From: a virus | Taxonomy: Duplodnaviria; Heunggongvirae; Uroviricota; Caudoviricetes | Reading direction: 5' to 3' (one strand) | DNA length: 6,417 bases | Virus record (IMG/VR): IMGVR_UViG_2706794662_000009 | Shown here: positions 1-6,300 of the stretch, one piece after another | Position numbering within the stretch: the first letter of the stretch is position 1 | How the letters are laid out: each line of letters opens with the position of its first letter | The notes under the pieces: model-generated | What the model was told of the DNA's origin: nothing | The model's input: only the letters and a program-made list of their open reading frames with translations | Databases searched by the model: none | Program-made: the position numbers and the translations under genes

Positions 1-86
1 CTCCAATGACTAGTCTAAAAACTAGTATTAAGACTATCACTTATTTAAGTGATACTGGTTGTCTGGAGATTCAGGGGGCCAGTCTA
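1..86 (-). mobile_element. Terminal 86 bp of an IS2 element (left end, IRL, adjacent to the insC/orfA start); element body extends leftward out of the window
   Basis: Positions 1-86 are, from my recall, the reverse complement of the IS2 left end (TAGACTGGCCCCCTGAATCTCCAGACAACCAATATCACTTAAATAAGTGATAGTCTTAATACTAGTTTTTAGACTAGTCATTGGAG), with one apparent mismatch near position 55. In IS2 the insC start follows a few bp beyond the last matching base, so it would lie just outside the window. Not verified by alignment. Confidence 0.75.
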
Positions 87-235
87 CCACCCCTGATGTC
101 AGGTAGGAAAACACCATATGTTTCTGCTCTGTTTTTCCTTAGAAATAGGCATCCTTGCTGGAACAAAGCGAGCAGCTATATTGACTCTATGTTGTGAGTG
201 TGTTGATCCGTTCTGAGTTAATACATTTAAGTTGC

Positions 236-1345
236 TCACTCTGTTTCTGCTATCCATTCCGGGATTTTTGCCTCAAGCTCAAGCTGCGTGGTAAAGCCGC
301 TGTTATCAATGGTGTGCTCGGCTTTTGCAATAATCCAGTCCTGATTATCAATCTCGCTTTTAAATCCTGTTACCGTGCCATGCATTTCGGGGTAGAGTTC
401 TGCACGTCCATGCGCCAGTGTGATGGAGAATGATGCGGCTCCGCGTTGTAGCTGCTGCCACTTTGCCGCCGCTGCACGTCTTGCTGCCTGCTCGTTCTGA
501 TAAGTTTTGCGTAACACAAACACGTTGCCTTCCGCACCTTCCATATAGTCGCCTTCCCGGCTGCTGCTTTTCTCCTTTTTTGGTTTTGACGGTTTGCGGC
601 GTTTCACGCTGACTTTTTTCTTTTTCCCGTAATTAAGATCAAGCCAGTAAGCGCGTACCCCCGTATACGCTTCGCGGTCAGCAATGCGGAACTGATGGCG
701 ATCGCCGCTGCTGCGTGTGATGGCGAACGAGGGCAACGGCTGGCCCTGTGCGTTCACGCCACCACCGGGCATGATGAATAACAGATTACCGCTTTTTACC
801 GTGGTGATTGCGCCCAGCATTTCCGCCATGCGCGTAAGGAAGGACATGTCGCTTTCTTCGGTCTGGTCGGCGTGGTCGATTTCGATATCCATCAGCATTT
901 CGCTGATTTGCGGTTTCAGACCATACCGATGAGCGATGGCGGATACCACACGCTCAACGGTCACATCATGCCAGGACACCTCACGTTTAACGTTAAATTC
1001 AGCCCGAAAATCTGCGCTTCTGGCTGAAACAGTCAGCCTGTCCGGCGGTCCTTCGTGAGCGATTTCATCAACAATGTAAGTGCCTTTTTCTGTCAGCGGT
1101 TCTCCCTTCCAGCCAATGAGAACCGTCAGGCGCGCGCCCCGTGGCGGTAGCTGCAACTGACCATCCGCATCATCCAGCGTGATGGTGAGCTGGTCCGCCT
1201 CAAATCCCCGGTTGTCGGTCAGTGACAGGCTCATCAGGCGCTCTGCCACGCCTGACAGCGTTTTACCCTCCGCGAGAATATCAAAATCCGGCATTTTCAC
1301 GGGGTCTGTGCCCTGACTGAGCAATTGCATGGTGGTGTCGGTCAT
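236..1345 (-). CDS. D: Phage tail protein D (P2 gpD / late control gene D family)
   Basis: Minus-strand ORF whose product (MTDTTMQLLSQGTDPVKMPDFDILAEGK...SLSLTDNRGFEADQLTITLDDADG...EGDYMEGAEGNVF...GFTTQLELEAK) resembles P2 gpD as I recall it, including a lysine-rich linker (KKKKVSVKRRKPSKPKKEK). Start chosen at the ATG at 1345, which follows GGGAGGGAG on the minus strand. The longer 413-aa ORF (start 1477) has a Pro/Ser/Thr/Arg-rich N-extension with no RBS. Stop TGA at 238-236. Confidence 0.88.
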   Translation of the reverse strand: MTDTTMQLLSQGTDPVKMPDFDILAEGKTLSGVAERLMSLSLTDNRGFEADQLTITLDDADGQLQLPPRGARLTVLIGWKGEPLTEKGTYIVDEIAHEGPPDRLTVSARSADFRAEFNVKREVSWHDVTVERVVSAIAHRYGLKPQISEMLMDIEIDHADQTEESDMSFLTRMAEMLGAITTVKSGNLLFIMPGGGVNAQGQPLPSFAITRSSGDRHQFRIADREAYTGVRAYWLDLNYGKKKKVSVKRRKPSKPKKEKSSSREGDYMEGAEGNVFVLRKTYQNEQAARRAAAAKWQQLQRGAASFSITLAHGRAELYPEMHGTVTGFKSEIDNQDWIIAKAEHTIDNSGFTTQLELEAKIPEWIAETE

Positions 1346-1502
1346 CTGCTCCCTCCCTGTGTGGCATGGTCGCATGTGCGTGCGGAGGGGGTTACTGCTT
1401 TTTGTTGTCGCCGTGGCGGGAGAATGGCGCAGGGGTGAGATTACGCGCGTGGTGGGTGATGATTGTTGCCGAATCATTTAACGGATACAAGGGGTTGAAG
1501 CT
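1346..1502. promoter_or_regulatory. Divergent intergenic region between D (leftward) and FI (rightward); presumed to contain promoters for both
   Basis: 157-bp non-coding spacer between two divergently oriented start codons. Contains the dyad ATGATT-N7-AATCAT (1459-1477), about 25-45 bp upstream of the FI ATG. No TGT-N12-ACA (P2 Ogr-type activator site) found by eye. No -10/-35 elements assigned. Confidence 0.3.
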
Positions 1503-2687
1503 ATGAGTGAAACTCGTTTTCATGGTGCCCGTGTTACGGAAAATACCGACCTGGTAACAGCGATTAACGATGTTGATTCCAGCGTTATCGGTATCGTGGC
1601 AACGGCGGATGATGCGGACGCGGAGCTGTTCCCGCTGAACAAGCCCACACTGCTGCCCCGCGTCAATGACGTGCTGGGAAAATGCGGAACAACGGGGACG
1701 CTTTATCGTGCGCTTAAGGCCATCGCAGACCAGGTGAGCACAAAGGTGATCGTCGTTCGCGTGGCTGAACACAAAGAAGAAGACGGAAAAACGCAGGATC
1801 AACTGGTTATCGGTGGTTCTGAATCTGACGGCAGCTATACGGGGATGTATGCGCTGCTTGTTGCAGAGCAGGATGAAAGCATCGGATACCGTCCGCGTAT
1901 TCTGGCCGCGCCGGAGCTGGACACGGAGGCGGTGACAAAATCCCTGTGCGTGATTGCGGGTAAACTGCGCGCGTTTGTGTATGCCTCATGTCATGACTGT
2001 AACACGATGGCTGAGGCAATTACCTACCGCCAGAAATTCAACGAACGTGAGGTGATGCTCTTATGGCCGGACTTCATCGCCTACAACCCGAAAAGTGGCA
2101 AAAACGAAACGTTCCCCGCGCCTGCCTATGCGTGCGGCCTTCGTGCGTACATTGACCATGAGCAGGGCTGGCACAAATCGCTGTCCAACGTTCCGGTTAA
2201 AAATGTGCTGGGGATGTCCAGGCATGTGTTCTGGTCGTTGCAGGCCGAAGACAGTGATGCCAACAGCCTCAACAACAAAGAAATCACGACCATTATTCGT
2301 CGCAACGGGTTCCGCTTCTGGGGCAACCGCACACCGGAAACGAACGCCTACATCTTTGAGGTGTATACCCGAACCGCACAGGTGCTGGCTGATTCAATTG
2401 CGGAAGCGCAGTTTGAAACCATCGACAGTCCACTGACGCCTGCGAACGTGAAGGATGTTATCGGTGCCATCAGGGCAAAACTGGATTCACTGGTTACTGC
2501 CGGGAAACTGATTGGGGCGTCGTGCTGGTATGACGTGGTGGATAACGGCACCACGAATTTACGTCAGGGGCGCGTGCGTATTCGCTACAAATATACGCCT
2601 GTTCCCCCGCTGGAAGACATGGAGCTTTACCAGTCGTTTACTGATGAATTCTTTGGTCCCGCATTTGCGGTGCTGGGAGGTGCCTGA
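1503..2687 (+). CDS. FI: Contractile tail sheath protein (P2 gpFI family)
   Basis: 394-aa ORF. Motifs such as DADAELFPLNKP, KLRAFVY, WPDF, EQGWHKSLSNV, IRRNGFRFWGNRT, YTRTAQV and YKYTPVPPLE match my recollection of P2 FI and other sheath proteins. AAGGGG RBS 8 nt upstream of the ATG. Stop TGA overlaps the FII start. Confidence 0.92.
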   Translation: MSETRFHGARVTENTDLVTAINDVDSSVIGIVATADDADAELFPLNKPTLLPRVNDVLGKCGTTGTLYRALKAIADQVSTKVIVVRVAEHKEEDGKTQDQLVIGGSESDGSYTGMYALLVAEQDESIGYRPRILAAPELDTEAVTKSLCVIAGKLRAFVYASCHDCNTMAEAITYRQKFNEREVMLLWPDFIAYNPKSGKNETFPAPAYACGLRAYIDHEQGWHKSLSNVPVKNVLGMSRHVFWSLQAEDSDANSLNNKEITTIIRRNGFRFWGNRTPETNAYIFEVYTRTAQVLADSIAEAQFETIDSPLTPANVKDVIGAIRAKLDSLVTAGKLIGASCWYDVVDNGTTNLRQGRVRIRYKYTPVPPLEDMELYQSFTDEFFGPAFAVLGGA

Positions 2688-3199
2688 TGGCTGTACCAAA
2701 ACATCTTCGCTTTTTTACGCTGTTTGTGGATGGTGAAAACGAAGTGGGTAAGGTGACGTCCGTCACTCTGCCTAAGCTGACGCGCAAAACCGACAGCTAC
2801 CGGGGTGGTGGCATGATGGGAGCGGTAAGTATTGATCTCGGCCTGGATGACTCCGCGCTTGATGCGAGCTTTGTCATGGGGGGCGCAGTTCGTGAGCTGT
2901 TCCTTAAGTATGGCGGCACGATTGACGGTACGCTGCTGCGTTTTGCGGGTGAATACTACACCGACGCTGAAAGCGACCTGTATGAAGTCGAAATGCGCGG
3001 ACGTGTGACGGAAATTGATATGGGGGAAGCCAAACAGGGCGAAGCCACATCACACACTTACGCCATTAAAAACACCTACTACAAGCTGAGTGTTAACGAT
3101 CGCCCGTTGTGGGAGATTGACCTGCTGAACTTCATTTACCGGAAGGACGGCAGGGACATTGTGCCCGATCGCATCCGTTCCGCGCTCGGGCTTGGCTGA
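2687..3199 (+). CDS. FII: Tail tube protein (P2 gpFII family)
   Basis: 170-aa ORF immediately after the sheath gene, with ATGA start/stop overlap. Product resembles P2 FII (VTLPKLTRK..YRGGGM..DLGLDD..RFAG..VEMRGR..KQGE). GGGAGGTG RBS upstream. Size and position are typical for a tube gene. Confidence 0.88.
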   Translation: MAVPKHLRFFTLFVDGENEVGKVTSVTLPKLTRKTDSYRGGGMMGAVSIDLGLDDSALDASFVMGGAVRELFLKYGGTIDGTLLRFAGEYYTDAESDLYEVEMRGRVTEIDMGEAKQGEATSHTYAIKNTYYKLSVNDRPLWEIDLLNFIYRKDGRDIVPDRIRSALGLG

Positions 3200-3253
3200 T
3201 AAGTAATATGCAGGCGGCGCAGTGCGTCGCCTCTGACTGAAAGGAGTTTCCTG

Positions 3254-3579
3254 ATGAAAGAGACGAAAAACATCGATACCGAAAACACGGTCGTTGCTGA
3301 CACTGTGAAAGAAACCAGTGAGCGTGGCGTAAAACTTACCCAACCAATTGAGCGAGGCGGCGAAAAAATCACGTATGTGGAGATCACCGGGGCTATTGAG
3401 CAGGCTGGATCTCTGCGAGATTTGTCGCTGTCTGATGTGCTGAATTTGAAAGCGGAATCCATGTTTACGCTGCTGTCACGCGTGACATCACCGCGACTGG
3501 ATGAAGTGACGATCAAAAAAATGGCATCCCGTGACTTTATTCAGTTATGTGTGGTTGCCGTAAATTTTTTGAGCGGTGC
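3254..3579 (+). CDS. E: Tail assembly chaperone E (P2 gpE family), 3' end lost in the assembly gap; encodes the E/E' frameshift site
   Basis: ORF starts at ATG 3254 with AAAGGAG RBS (3241-3247). It sits between tube and tape measure, the conserved position of the chaperone pair. Contains the slippery heptamer T-TTT-TTG at 3565-3571 in the correct phase. Sequence similarity to P2 E is weak from memory; the call rests mainly on synteny and the frameshift motif. Confidence 0.72.
3565..3571 (+). other. Putative programmed -1 ribosomal frameshift site (T TTT TTG) producing the E' extension
   Basis: In the E reading frame the codons are AAT TTT TTG, giving the heptamer T_TTT_TTG, the slippery sequence described for P2 E/E' and analogous to lambda G/GT. 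The -1 frame is open up to the gap. Confidence 0.6.
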
Positions 3580-3839
3580 NNNNNNNNNNNNNNNNNNNNN
3601 NNNNNNNNNNNNNNNNNNNNNNNNNNNNNNNNNNNNNNNNNNNNNNNNNNNNNNNNNNNNNNNNNNNNNNNNNNNNNNNNNNNNNNNNNNNNNNNNNNNN
3701 NNNNNNNNNNNNNNNNNNNNNNNNNNNNNNNNNNNNNNNNNNNNNNNNNNNNNNNNNNNNNNNNNNNNNNNNNNNNNNNNNNNNNNNNNNNNNNNNNNNN
3801 NNNNNNNNNNNNNNNNNNNNNNNNNNNNNNNNNNNNNNN
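3580..3839. other. Assembly gap or masked sequence (260 N)
   Basis: Uninterrupted run of N. Gap length may be an estimate, so reading-frame continuity across it is unreliable. Confidence 0.99.
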
Positions 3840-3840
3840 C

Positions 3841-6300
3841 CTGATGGGGCAGTTTGGTGACTCCATCCAGCGAACGCAGGGGGCGATCAAAAATCTCGAG
3901 CGTCAGGCGCGTTCATTTGAGCGCGCCCGTGACGCTGTCAGTAAAGCGGATGCGGGCATCGTGAAAGCACGACGCCAGCTTAACGCCCTTAATCAGTTAC
4001 AACGCACGGGTACAGTGCTCAGCGAAAAACAACAAAAGCTGATGCAGCAGTTAAGCACCCGGCTTGAACGCCTGAATGAATCGCGCACACGGGAAATTCA
4101 GAAAATGCGGGAACTTGGCGGAGAGCTGAAACGCCACGGCATTTCCCTGACAGGCAGCGATAACACCATCCAGCAGGCCATCAGACGCACCGGACAATAC
4201 AACAACCAGCTTGAACGCGAACGGCGGGCGCTTGCGCGTGTAACGCAGGCGCGTGAGCGGTATTCACGCGCGCAGGAAACAGCGGGAAAACTGAAAACAG
4301 GTGGTGCGCTGGCAACAGGTGCGGCGGCAGCGGGCGGCTATGCTGCCGGGCGTTTTTTGCAGCCCGCTATCGGGTTCGGGAAAGAGATGTCCCGTGTTCA
4401 GGCACTGACGCGAATCGATAAAAACAGCCCGCAGTTTAAGGCGCTGCGTGAGCAGGCGTTAAAACTTGGCTCTGAAACGCAGTTCACCGCAGGCGATGCC
4501 GCCAGTGGACAGGCATTTCTTGCAATGGCTGGTTTCACACCGCAGGCCATTCAGGCTGCGCTTCCCGGCGTGCTGAGCATGGCAACGGCTGGCGGTATGG
4601 ACCTCGGCGAGACGGCGGATATTGGTTCCAATATCCTGACGCAGTTCGGCCTCTCTGCTGACCAGATGGACCGGGTCGGTGACACACTTACCGCAGCGTT
4701 TACCCGTACCAACACTGACCTTCGCGCACTGGGCGAAACCATGAAATATGCAGGTCCGGTGGCGGGTAAGCTGGGAATATCGCTGGAGCAGGCCGCAGCG
4801 ATGGCGGGCGTGCTGGCGAAGATGGGTATCAGGGGGAGTGATGCAGGTACAGCGTTGCGTAAAAGCCTGGCCAATCTGTCATCACCGCCAAAGGCAGCGG
4901 CAGAAGCACTGAAAGAGCTGGGGGTGTCAGTTGCTGACGCCAAAGGCAAAATGCGCCCGATGGAGAATGTGCTGGCCGATCTCTATAAAGCCACCCGCAA
5001 ATACGGGGAGGTTGACCGGGTATCGTTCTTTAAGGACATTGCCGGAGAAGAGGCTTTCACATCATTTATGGGCCTCGTTGATGCGGCAGGTGACGGCTTC
5101 TTAGCCAAACTGAGAAAAGAACTTGAAGGCGCGCGCGGTGAGGCAGAACGCACGGCAAAGGTTATGGCCAATAACCTTGATGGCAACCTGAAATCACTCG
5201 GCAGTGCATGGGAAGGTCTGCGTATTCGCATCAGTGATCTGGTTGACGGTCCGCTGCGTTCTGTCACGCAGTGGCTCACGCGGGTTGTCTCAAAGGTGAC
5301 GGCGCTGGCGCAGGCCCACCCGGCACTGACGCGCCAGTTACTGATAGCGGGAGGCGCACTGCTGGCGACAACAGCAACGGTTGGTTCGTTGTCTCTGGTT
5401 ATTGGGGTGCTTCACGGGAAGCTGGCTACGTTGCGTCTCGGTTTTTCTCTCCTGACCGAATCAATGAATGTTGTCAGGGTTCTGCCTGCATTATGGGGAA
5501 TGGTGACGGGTTCCGTTTCTTTACTTGGTGGCGCTATCGGGGCGCTGTTCAGTCCGGTTAGTCTTATCGTGGCTGCGCTTGCCGGAGCTGCCGTTCTTAT
5601 CTGGAAATACTGGGATCCCATCAGGGCATTTTTTGCCGGGGTGTTCAGCGGGATTATGGAAAGGCTGACCCCGTTGCGCGAAACCTTTGAACGGTTTGGC
5701 CCTGTTTTTGATGTCGTGCGCGATGGGATTATTCAGGTCTTTAACTGGTTTAAATCGCTGCTGTCACCGATGGAGTCCAGCAAGGAAACGCTGGATAAAT
5801 GTGCCAGTGCTGGCGAGATATTCGGTAACGTTCTTGGCGGTGCGTTACAACTTGTTCTGACACCTGCAAAAATGCTACTGGATACGCTGGCGTGGATACT
5901 TGAAAAACTTGGCGTCCTTCCGGATGAAGCGGAAAGGGCGCGCAAGAAAATCGAAGACGCACAGCGTGCGGCCATTCTTCAGGACAAGGTTGCCTTGCTT
6001 CAGGGGGACCTGGCGAAAATCAATCCGCCGAAGCCTGTGGAAAATGGCAATGGCACCGGAGGTGATAAACCCAAAGACAACAAACCGCTCACAGACAGCA
6101 ATACCGGGACGCTACGCAGACTCAGCAAAATTGCTGATAACACAGGTAAGCTGGTTGATGAGACGAAAAAACGCATTGGCCCCGGCGATATTGTCTTTAA
6201 GAACCTGCCCCGCGCACTTGCTGTTCGTGGGGAGTGGCAGGAGCGGAAGATTGCGCAGGTCAGTAAGCCTGCCCCCGCAATTAATATCACACTGAGGTAG
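3841..6300 (+). CDS. T: Tail tape measure protein (P2 gpT family), 5' end in gap; 3' end runs into an IS element and is probably truncated
   Basis: About 820 visible codons. N-terminal part is charged and helical (Q/R/E/L-rich), followed by a Gly/Ala-rich region and hydrophobic segments (about 5320-5600), then a C-terminal region, all typical of tape measure proteins. Located after FI-FII-E as in P2. Start is either inside the gap or at ATG 3844. The last two codons and the TAG stop (6293-6300) lie within the inferred IS terminus. Confidence 0.88.
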   Translation: MMGQFGDSIQRTQGAIKNLERQARSFERARDAVSKADAGIVKARRQLNALNQLQRTGTVLSEKQQKLMQQLSTRLERLNESRTREIQKMRELGGELKRHGISLTGSDNTIQQAIRRTGQYNNQLERERRALARVTQARERYSRAQETAGKLKTGGALATGAAAAGGYAAGRFLQPAIGFGKEMSRVQALTRIDKNSPQFKALREQALKLGSETQFTAGDAASGQAFLAMAGFTPQAIQAALPGVLSMATAGGMDLGETADIGSNILTQFGLSADQMDRVGDTLTAAFTRTNTDLRALGETMKYAGPVAGKLGISLEQAAAMAGVLAKMGIRGSDAGTALRKSLANLSSPPKAAAEALKELGVSVADAKGKMRPMENVLADLYKATRKYGEVDRVSFFKDIAGEEAFTSFMGLVDAAGDGFLAKLRKELEGARGEAERTAKVMANNLDGNLKSLGSAWEGLRIRISDLVDGPLRSVTQWLTRVVSKVTALAQAHPALTRQLLIAGGALLATTATVGSLSLVIGVLHGKLATLRLGFSLLTESMNVVRVLPALWGMVTGSVSLLGGAIGALFSPVSLIVAALAGAAVLIWKYWDPIRAFFAGVFSGIMERLTPLRETFERFGPVFDVVRDGIIQVFNWFKSLLSPMESSKETLDKCASAGEIFGNVLGGALQLVLTPAKMLLDTLAWILEKLGVLPDEAERARKKIEDAQRAAILQDKVALLQGDLAKINPPKPVENGNGTGGDKPKDNKPLTDSNTGTLRRLSKIADNTGKLVDETKKRIGPGDIVFKNLPRALAVRGEWQERKIAQVSKPAPAINITLR

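What the first reader, a model, noticed from the sequence alone, without database searches (positions are those of the whole stretch)
236..1502. Tail gene D lies upstream of, and divergent from, FI-FII-E-T, which is not the P2 order
In P2 and its well-studied relatives the late tail operon runs FI-FII-E-T-U-D on one strand. Here D is on the opposite strand immediately upstream of FI, separated by 157 bp, and no IS sits at that junction. This is either an old inversion or rearrangement, or the native layout of a less-studied lineage. It also means D and the sheath operon would be expressed from divergent promoters in one short region.
Basis: partly seen in the sequence, partly recalled or inferred. 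Interest (0 to 1): 0.5.

Follow-up and report, generated by a model that had tools for sequence, protein, structure and literature searches.

The report
Normal gene order of P88-like prophages
The tail gene D does face away from the sheath operon here, but this is the standard, ancient layout of a large branch of P2-like phages (P88 and relatives) found in a quarter of complete E. coli genomes, so it is ordinary rather than a rearrangement or an assembly error.

Summary
D (236-1345, minus strand) and FI (1503-2687, plus strand) diverge across a 157-bp spacer that holds no IS.

It is not an anomaly. The same junction is contiguous in 1355 of 5426 complete E. coli genomes and in 13 phage records, including the functional phages P88 and PhiSM.

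Compared with P2, the FI-FII-E-E'-T-U block is the part that is inverted. D and ogr keep the orientation of the V-G operon.

In a survey of 85 loci, 63 have this order: four ICTV genera (Xuanwuvirus, Senquatrovirus, Reginaelenavirus, Reipivirus) and prophages from about 28 genera of Enterobacterales. The other 22 have the P2 order. NJ trees of D, FI and FII each separate the two groups exactly, which points to one old inversion that defines a clade.

The spacer carries one conserved dyad of the P2 late-promoter type. It reads TGT-N12-AGA in the window (1406-1423) and TGT-N12-ACA in relatives. Mirror-image -10-like hexamers lie 44-49 bp to each side of its centre. This is the geometry of P2's mapped divergent pP/pO pair.

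I infer, without experimental proof, that one Ogr site drives FI and D divergently. Interest is low. The gene order is already visible in public records, and only the promoter reading adds a little.

The parts
236..1345 (-). Gene D, the baseplate hub (gpD, T4 gp27 / VgrG-like), 369 aa including the stop codon. The longer ORF reaching 1477 is probably not used.
   Evidence: Pfam PF05954, E 5e-17. PDB 6u5h_C (R2 pyocin hub), E 1e-40. 98.6% identical to P88 gpD and 50% to P2 gpD. In other genera the start codon with its SD sits at the equivalent place and the upstream extension is not open.
1346..1502 (.). The 157-bp D-FI spacer, inferred to be a bidirectional late-promoter region (pF plus a D promoter).
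   Evidence: The spacer is 140-165 bp in nearly all of the 63 loci with this gene order. Conservation anchored on the dyad is shown.
1349..1358 (-). Shine-Dalgarno sequence AGGGAGGGAG for D.
   Evidence: Read directly from the sequence.
1366..1371 (-). -10-like hexamer GACCAT for D, at -44..-49 from the dyad centre. The predicted transcription start is about 1357-1359 (minus strand).
   Evidence: nAnnAT occupies this exact offset in 30 of 38 diverged representatives, against a background of 2.3% per position. It mirrors the P2 pP geometry. The start site is inferred, not mapped.
1406..1423 (.). Dyad TGT-CGCCGTGGCGGG-AGA, centre 1414.5. This is the candidate Ogr (late activator) binding site shared by both promoters.
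   Evidence: Position. The half-sites are invariant (TGT 38/38; A-C-A 38/27/37 of 38) while the 12-bp spacer varies. The centre lies 78.5-88.5 bp from the FI ATG in 61 of 63 loci, with a mode of 82.5, the same as mapped P2 pF. P88's P-O spacer carries the same TCT-N12-ACAACAAAAG element.
1458..1463 (+). -10-like hexamer GATGAT for FI (pF), at +44..+49 from the dyad centre. The predicted transcription start is about 1470-1472.
   Evidence: nAnnAT occupies this offset in 37 of 38 representatives. In P2 pF the -10 lies at +45..+50 and the mapped start at +57..+59.
1503..2687 (+). FI, tail sheath, 394 aa.
   Evidence: Pfam PF04984, PF22671 and PF17482. 97% identical to P88 FI and 45% to P2 FI.
2687..3199 (+). 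FII, tail tube, 170 aa.
   Evidence: Pfam PF04985, E 1.9e-46. TIGR01611 above its cut-off.
3254..3580 (+). E, tail assembly chaperone. Its 3' end and the E' frameshift region are hidden by Ns.
   Evidence: Weak match to Pfam PF10109 (17.7 bits, below the cut-off of 25). The position matches P88 gp47 and the RefSeq 'GpE family' neighbours.
3840..6300 (+). T, tape measure. Its 5' end is hidden by the N-run at 3581-3839.
   Evidence: Pfam PF10145, E 1.1e-57. 96% identical to the P88 tape measure.

Best explanation
The window is the tail end of a P88-like (Xuanwuvirus, Peduoviridae) prophage in its normal gene order.

**Origin of the order.** In the common ancestor of a large branch of P2-like phages, the segment [pF promoter-FI-FII-E-E'-T-U] was inverted once. 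D and the ogr gene that follows it stayed in place. FI and D therefore now diverge across about 150 bp.

**How D is expressed (inferred).** The inversion put the back of the pF promoter next to D. The late activator's binding site is a dyad (TGT-N12-ACA). D needed only a -10 element at the mirror position to be switched on by the same bound Ogr. The spacer would then work like P2's pP/pO pair, with one activator site centred about 56 bp upstream of two divergent start sites. In window coordinates these are about 1470-1472 for FI and about 1357-1359 for D.

**Shown:** the gene order, its distribution, its agreement with the protein trees, and the conserved dyad and mirror-image hexamers.

**Inferred:** Ogr binding, the two start sites, and the idea that a single site serves both promoters.
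For: **Gene order and distribution**
- The junction 1150-1700 is contiguous in 1355 of 5426 complete E. coli genomes. Thirteen phage records cover at least 80% of window 1-3575 at 94-98% identity.
- The P88 map reads V W J I H G (+), then U T E' E FII FI (-), then D (+).
- P88 and PhiSM are inducible, plaque-forming phages (PMC5285337; PMC6456863).
- The same order occurs in SEN5, Kp4871-3 and Kp4848-1, while P2 and Cartapus are colinear.
- In the survey, 63 loci are inverted and 22 colinear. Identity of D to the window is at least 60.6% in every inverted locus and at most 54.0% in every colinear one.
- NJ trees of D, FI and FII each contain an exact inverted-versus-colinear split.
- An ogr homologue lies just downstream of D on the same strand in 62 of 63 inverted loci and in all 22 colinear loci. 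The P88 homologue has the CX2CX22CX4C motif.

**Promoter architecture**
- The P2 record annotates one activator site for both pP and pO, with mapped starts 111 bp apart.
- P2 late promoters share the consensus TGT-N12-ACA and depend on Ogr (PMC3931495).
- In 38 representatives below 90% identity, the dyad half-sites are invariant and the spacer between them varies.
- nAnnAT hexamers sit at +44..+49 in 37 of 38 and at -44..-49 in 30 of 38, against a 2.3% background.
- Colinear loci have the dyad and a -10 on the FI side only.
Against: - No transcript or binding data exist for this lineage, so the start sites and Ogr dependence are inferred from geometry alone.
- The window's own dyad is imperfect (TGT-N12-AGA). 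Matches to the loose pattern are not enriched in the window as a whole: 29 found against 28.4 expected.
- The predicted D leader is very short, about 13 nt, and starts at the SD.
- Eight of 38 representatives lack nAnnAT on the D side. Two Providencia loci have a different palindrome at this position.
- The window itself contains no ogr, because the sequence breaks at IS2.
- The survey took the 80 best D matches, one genome per species. It is not an unbiased sample of all P2-like phages.
Confidence: 0.9

Rival explanations
1. The D-FI junction is an assembly mis-join, or a recent rearrangement private to this genome.
For: None was found. The only nearby irregularities are the IS2 end at 1-86 and the N-run at 3581-3839.
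Against: The same junction is contiguous, in a single aligned piece, in 1355 complete E. coli genomes and in independently sequenced phage genomes. It is also present in 59 genomes of other species.
Confidence: 0.01
2. The FI..U block is a switchable segment, flipped by the phage's Gin/Cin-type DNA invertase or by IS elements. Both orientations would then coexist.
For: P88 encodes a DNA invertase right next to U.
Against: - All 63 loci of the clade have the same orientation.
- Many lack the invertase. The O111-type prophage, for example, has an acetyltransferase at that position.
- In P88 the only long inverted repeats flank the tail-fibre segment 24803-26005, and none flank 27600-33175.
- No IS lies at either end of the block in relatives.
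Confidence: 0.02
3. The gene order is native, but D is not driven by the shared dyad. It would have its own independent promoter (constitutive sigma-70, or a second activator site), or be read from elsewhere.
For: - The D-side hexamer is less conserved than the FI-side one (30 of 38 against 37 of 38).
- Many relatives have a TTG-like -35 on the D side, which could give activator-independent transcription.
- The predicted leader is unusually short.
Against: - No sigma-70 consensus promoter was found in 1346-1502.
- No second dyad is present in the spacer.
- The D-side hexamer sits at exactly the mirror offset of the FI-side one, matching the mapped P2 pP/pO geometry.
- Nothing upstream on D's strand could supply read-through, because FI lies antisense there.
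Confidence: 0.25

Closest known systems
Escherichia phage P88 and relatives (genus Xuanwuvirus, Peduoviridae; NC_026014, PhiR44_2, 500465-2, P884B11, Citrobacter PhiSM)
   Same: Same genes in the same order and orientation. Nucleotide identity over window 225-3575 is 94-98%. The 157-bp spacer is the same, with 4 differences from P88.
   Different: The window has an IS2 end 150 bp beyond D. Its bases 87-224 follow the O111-type version, which has a PIN-domain gene between D and ogr. In P88, ogr follows D after 43 nt.
Phage P2 F operon (pF: FI-FII-E-E'-T-U-D, then ogr)
   Same: The proteins are homologous: FI 45%, FII 42%, D 50% identity. The pF dyad sits at a similar distance from the FI ATG, 82.5 bp in P2 and 88.5 bp in the window, with a mode of 82.5 in the clade. 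D-ogr adjacency is kept.
   Different: The pF-FI..U block is inverted relative to D, ogr and the V-G operon. D is therefore no longer the last gene of the F operon and needs its own promoter.
Phage P2 divergent late promoters pP/pO
   Same: There is one activator site between two divergent late genes. The -10 hexamers lie at +/-44-49 from the dyad centre, and the mapped starts lie at +/-56 (111 bp apart). The P-O spacer is about 150-170 bp, against 157 bp here.
   Different: The genes served are different (terminase and scaffold, against sheath and hub). In the window this is a prediction from sequence conservation, not a mapped promoter pair.
Stenotrophomonas phage Smp131 (P2-like phage with rearranged late operons)
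   Same: It is a published case in which the late operons of a P2-like phage are rearranged and putative TGT-N12-ACA promoters are reassigned. Its PP' and PO' were placed on the same 18-bp element (PMC3931495).
   Different: The rearrangement is different (V/J and F operon members are exchanged) and the lineage is distant. No D-FI divergence was described.
R2 pyocin baseplate hub (PDB 6u5h chain C)
   Same: It is the closest solved relative of D, E 1e-40 over residues 18-356. This supports a structural hub role for D rather than a 'late control' role.
   Different: In the R-pyocin cluster the genes follow the P2 order. This rests on my own knowledge and was not tested here.

Membership tests
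P2-like (Peduoviridae) contractile tail module | Sheath FI, tube FII, tape measure T and hub D proteins belonging to the P2 families | tested here: met
   Pfam PF04984, PF22671, PF17482, PF04985, PF10145 and PF05954 all score above their cut-offs. Identity to the P2 proteins is 42-50%.
P2-like (Peduoviridae) contractile tail module | Chaperone pair E/E' with a programmed frameshift between FII and T | tested here: inconclusive
   The E N-terminus matches PF10109 only weakly (17.7 bits, cut-off 25). The shift region is hidden by Ns at 3581-3839. Relatives do have annotated E and GpE-family CDSs at this position.
P2 gene order (genus Peduovirus type) | FI-FII-E-E'-T-U-D colinear on one strand under pF | tested here: not met
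   D is on the opposite strand, upstream of FI. The P2 order itself is confirmed.
Xuanwuvirus (P88-like phages) | High nucleotide identity to P88-type genomes | tested here: met
   Identity is 97.6% to P88 and 98.1% to PhiR44_2 over window 225-3575. Only 6.4 kb could be compared, so the genome-wide genus criterion cannot be applied.
Xuanwuvirus (P88-like phages) | Order U-T-E'-E-FII-FI on one strand with D divergent from FI | tested here: met
   for P88. for the window. U lies beyond the end of the window.
Ogr-dependent P2 late promoter | TGT-N12-ACA dyad centred about 55 bp upstream of the start site | tested here: inconclusive
   The window has TGT-N12-AGA, a 5-of-6 match, at 1406-1423. The position is conserved and relatives in three sister genera have the perfect dyad or the same TCT variant. 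The start site has not been mapped, so the -55 position is only predicted.
Ogr-dependent P2 late promoter | -10 element at the P2 distance from the dyad | tested here: met
   GATGAT lies at +44..+49 and GACCAT at -44..-49 in the window. Conservation at these offsets is 37/38 and 30/38.
Ogr-dependent P2 late promoter | The phage encodes an Ogr/Delta-type zinc-finger activator | tested here: met
   It is not present in the window. It is present just after D in 62 of 63 loci of the clade, and the P88 copy has CX2CX22CX4C. The O111-type prophage has an annotated ogr.
Ogr-dependent P2 late promoter | Transcription requires Ogr and contact with the RNA polymerase alpha subunit | not testable with these tools
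   This needs reporter assays, start-site mapping or footprinting.

The most novel reading that the evidence does not exclude
The inversion created a fifth late promoter, for D and probably ogr, by re-using the back of pF. A single palindromic Ogr site would now fire in both directions, as at pP/pO. This clade would then be a natural example of an activator-dependent promoter becoming bidirectional after a rearrangement. It would also leave a short D-ogr late transcript that keeps ogr under positive feedback.
Probability: 0.6. Interest if true: 0.3.

Novelty: already known. Interest (0 to 1): 0.15.

Why it matters
It matters little for discovery. The layout is the norm for a very common prophage family and can be read from deposited, annotated genomes.

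It has some practical value:
- Annotators and prophage finders should not flag a D-FI divergence in enterobacterial P2-like prophages as a rearrangement or a mis-assembly.
- The orientation of the FI..U block is a clean marker that separates the P88/SEN4/Reginaelenavirus/Reipivirus branch from P2-type phages.

The conserved dyad with mirror-image -10 elements also gives a cheap, testable prediction about how D is expressed in this branch.

Tried and rejected
- **Exact TGT-N12-ACA in P88.** There are only 2 matches, fewer than chance, and neither lies at a late operon. P88-type phages use a TCT/AGA variant half-site, so exact-pattern scans miss the site.
- **One-mismatch scan of the window.** It found 29 matches against 28.4 expected. 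The motif count alone means nothing. The signal comes from conservation of position across diverged relatives.
- **Sigma-70 and terminator consensus scan of 1-1700.** Nothing was found in the spacer.
- **Rfam scan of the whole window.** No family reached its threshold.
- **Inverted repeats flanking the FI..U block in P88.** None were found, so an invertase-switch model was dropped.
- **Repeats within window 1-3580.** Only short chance pairs appeared.
- **Literature.** The P88, SEN4/5, PhiSM and 'global P2-like diversity' papers do not mention the inversion. The Casjens and Grose P2-like prophage survey could not be retrieved under the id I guessed, so I cannot say whether it describes the inversion.
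- **Possible disruption of D in O111 prophages.** RefSeq annotates only 801 nt there, but the full 369-aa frame is intact. This is an annotation under-call.
- **Source genome of the window.** It was not identified. No surveyed locus or complete E. coli genome carries the IS2 junction.

Full report
**Anatomy of the window**

The window carries a minus-strand ORF at 236..1477 and plus-strand ORFs at 1503-2687, 2687-3199, from 3254, and ending at 6300. Pfam assigns them as follows:
- Phage_GPD (PF05954, E 5e-17) to the minus-strand ORF;
- tail sheath (PF04984, PF22671, PF17482);
- tail tube (PF04985, E 1.9e-46);
- a weak TAC_7 chaperone match;
- tape measure (PF10145, E 1.1e-57).

The functional start of D is the ATG at 1345-1343, directly after AGGGAGGGAG. 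The longer frame to 1477 is open only in close relatives and has no counterpart in other genera.

D's best solved relative is the R2-pyocin baseplate hub (6u5h_C, E 1e-40). D is thus a structural hub protein. An N-run at 3581-3839 hides the E/E' region and the start of T. Bases 1-86 are the end of IS2. No IS lies in the spacer.

**Is the junction real and is it unusual?**

Window 1150-1700 spans the 5' end of D, the spacer and the 5' end of FI. It is contiguous in 1355 of 5426 complete E. coli genomes, at 95-99% identity in nearly all. Window 1-3575 is at least 80% covered by one colinear place in 1110 genomes and in 13 phage records. These records include:
- PhiR44_2 (98.1%);
- P88 (97.6%);
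- 500465-2 and P884B11;
- Citrobacter phage PhiSM.

A mis-join or a private rearrangement is therefore excluded. P88 and PhiSM are inducible, plaque-forming phages (PMC5285337; PMC6456863), so the layout is functional.

**What differs from P2**

The annotated P88 genome (Xuanwuvirus, Peduoviridae) has this order:
- V W J I H G on the plus strand;
- an invertible tail-fibre segment and its invertase;
- U, T, E', E, FII, FI on the minus strand;
- D on the plus strand.

P2 has V W J I H G, then FI FII E E' T U D ogr, all on one strand. So the block from pF to U is what is inverted. D keeps the orientation of the other late genes.

An ogr homologue lies immediately downstream of D on the same strand in 62 of 63 loci with this layout, as in P2. 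The P88 copy has the CX2CX22CX4C zinc-finger motif, although RefSeq does not annotate it.

**How widespread is the layout?**

A tblastn search with D found 526 phage records. Phages whose D is 62-72% identical to the window's D have the inverted block: Salmonella SEN5 (Senquatrovirus), and Klebsiella Kp4871-3 (Reginaelenavirus) and Kp4848-1 (Reipivirus). Cartapus (Elveevirus, 53%) and P2 (50%) are colinear.

A scan of one genome per bacterial species with an alignment of four D proteins returned 80 loci. Local tblastn with D, FI, FII, T and U classified the 80 genome loci and six phage loci (85 of the 86 classified):
- 63 are inverted;
- 22 are colinear;
- one locus (L044) has FI in the inverted orientation, but FI and D are incomplete and it was left unclassified.

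The inverted loci come from about 28 genera of Enterobacterales. Examples are Salmonella, Klebsiella, Enterobacter, Citrobacter, Serratia, Erwinia, Pantoea, Pectobacterium, Brenneria, Yersinia, Hafnia, Edwardsiella, Morganella, Providencia, Xenorhabdus and Photorhabdus.

Identity of D to the window is at least 60.6% in every inverted locus and at most 54.0% in every colinear one. Neighbour-joining trees of D, FI and FII each contain a branch that separates the two groups exactly. The simplest reading is a single old inversion that defines a clade. Because the 80 loci are the best D matches and the trees are unrooted NJ trees without bootstraps, this is well supported but not exhaustive.

In P88, no inverted repeats flank the block. 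Only the tail-fibre segment has them. The block is therefore not a present-day switch.

**The spacer**

P2 late promoters share a TGT-N12-ACA element and depend on Ogr (PMC3931495). The P2 record gives these mapped features:

| P2 promoter | Activator site | Mapped start(s) | Other |
|---|---|---|---|
| pP / pO (divergent pair) | one site, 3057-3087 | 3016 and 3127, 111 bp apart, each about 56 bp from the dyad centre | -10 hexamers at +/-44-49 from the centre |
| pF | dyad centred 82.5 bp from the FI ATG | +57..+59 from the centre | |

The window's spacer contains TGT-CGCCGTGGCGGG-AGA at 1406-1423. By itself this is not significant, because the loose pattern is as common as chance in the window. 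Its position, however, is conserved. A T[G/C]T-N12-ACA element was found in 61 of 63 inverted loci. Its centre lies 78.5-88.5 bp from the FI ATG, with a mode of 82.5 bp.

I anchored 38 representatives sharing less than 90% identity on the dyad, without gaps. The result:
- TGT is invariant (38/38).
- The other half-site is A 38/38, C 27/38, A 37/38.
- The 12 bases between the half-sites vary. This is the usual signature of two protein-contacted half-sites.

The pattern nAnnAT occupies +44..+49 (FI side) in 37 of 38 representatives. It occupies -44..-49 on the opposite strand (D side) in 30 of 38. The background is 2.3% per position. In the window these hexamers are GATGAT (1458-1463) and GACCAT (1371-1366).

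P88's own P-O spacer has the same variant dyad, TCT-N12-ACAACAAAAG, with suitably placed hexamers. Colinear relatives have the pF dyad 79.5-85.5 bp from FI and a -10 on the FI side, but nothing consistent on the far side.

**Mechanism, with its status**

Shown:
- the gene order;
- its phylogenetic distribution;
- the conserved dyad and the mirror-symmetric hexamers.

Inferred:
- The dyad binds the phage's Ogr homologue.
- FI..U is transcribed from about 1470-1472.
- D, and probably ogr after it, is transcribed from about 1357-1359 with a leader of roughly 13 nt that begins at the SD.
- One bound activator serves both promoters, as at P2 pP/pO.

This also gives a plausible history. The inversion placed the palindromic activator site of pF next to D, and only a -10 at the mirror position had to be acquired. 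I put about 0.97 on the native-layout part and about 0.65-0.7 on the shared-site promoter model.

The main rival is that D has an activator-independent promoter in the same spacer. Many relatives have a TTG at the -35 position on the D side, and the D-side hexamer is less conserved. No sigma-70 consensus site was found in the window's spacer.

**Comparison with known systems, and novelty**

The locus is a member of the P88-like phages by sequence and gene order. It belongs to the P2-like tail module by protein content. It does not have the P2 gene order. Its spacer works like, and in my reading is built like, the P2 pP/pO region.

The gene order is visible in public annotated genomes, so I rate the finding 'already known'. 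None of the papers I could read comments on the inversion. The Casjens and Grose survey could not be retrieved. The promoter reading is a small addition that experiments could settle quickly.

**Verdict**

Interest is low, at 0.15.

Noticed in passing
window 1-86: This is the terminal 86 bp of IS2 (left inverted-repeat end), with the element running leftwards off the window. It lies about 150 bp beyond the stop codon of D. No complete E. coli genome has this IS2/prophage junction: none covers at least 80% of window 1-400.
   Followed up: partly
window 87-224; L002 18424-20151: This stretch downstream of D matches only the O111-type version of the prophage. There, a roughly 500-aa PIN-domain gene sits between D and ogr. 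P88-type phages match only from 210-225 onwards and have ogr 43 nt after D. The D-ogr gap may be a cargo insertion spot.
   Followed up: partly
window 3581-3839: A run of 259 Ns hides the 3' end of E, the E/E' frameshift site and the start of the tape-measure gene T.
   Followed up: no
L009 (NZ_JBQPOM010000071.1, 'Vagococcus sp. WN89Y'): A contig labelled as Vagococcus, a Gram-positive genus, carries a prophage with D 98% identical to the window's D, with the same gene order and the same 157-bp spacer. This is probably contamination or a mislabelled assembly.
   Followed up: no
L001 (P88, NC_026014) 34476-34634; also 33155-33286 and L004 7800-7952: RefSeq P88 has no CDS for the ogr homologue just after D, although the CX2CX22CX4C motif is present. 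The small 'hypothetical' CDSs gp50 (P88) and SEN5_27 lie across the D-FI promoter region and are probably over-calls.
   Followed up: partly
L002 20152-21261 (E. coli UTAK-22 and other O111 genomes): RefSeq annotates D as an 801-nt 'VgrG/Pvc8 family' CDS plus a partial pseudogene. The full 369-aa D frame is in fact intact and 99.5% identical to the window's D. This is an annotation under-call, not a disrupted gene.
   Followed up: yes
L045 and L049 (Providencia), D-FI spacer: In place of TGT-N12-ACA, these two loci have a different palindrome (GGTTCTC-N11-GAGAACC) at the same position. This may reflect an activator with changed specificity.
   Followed up: no
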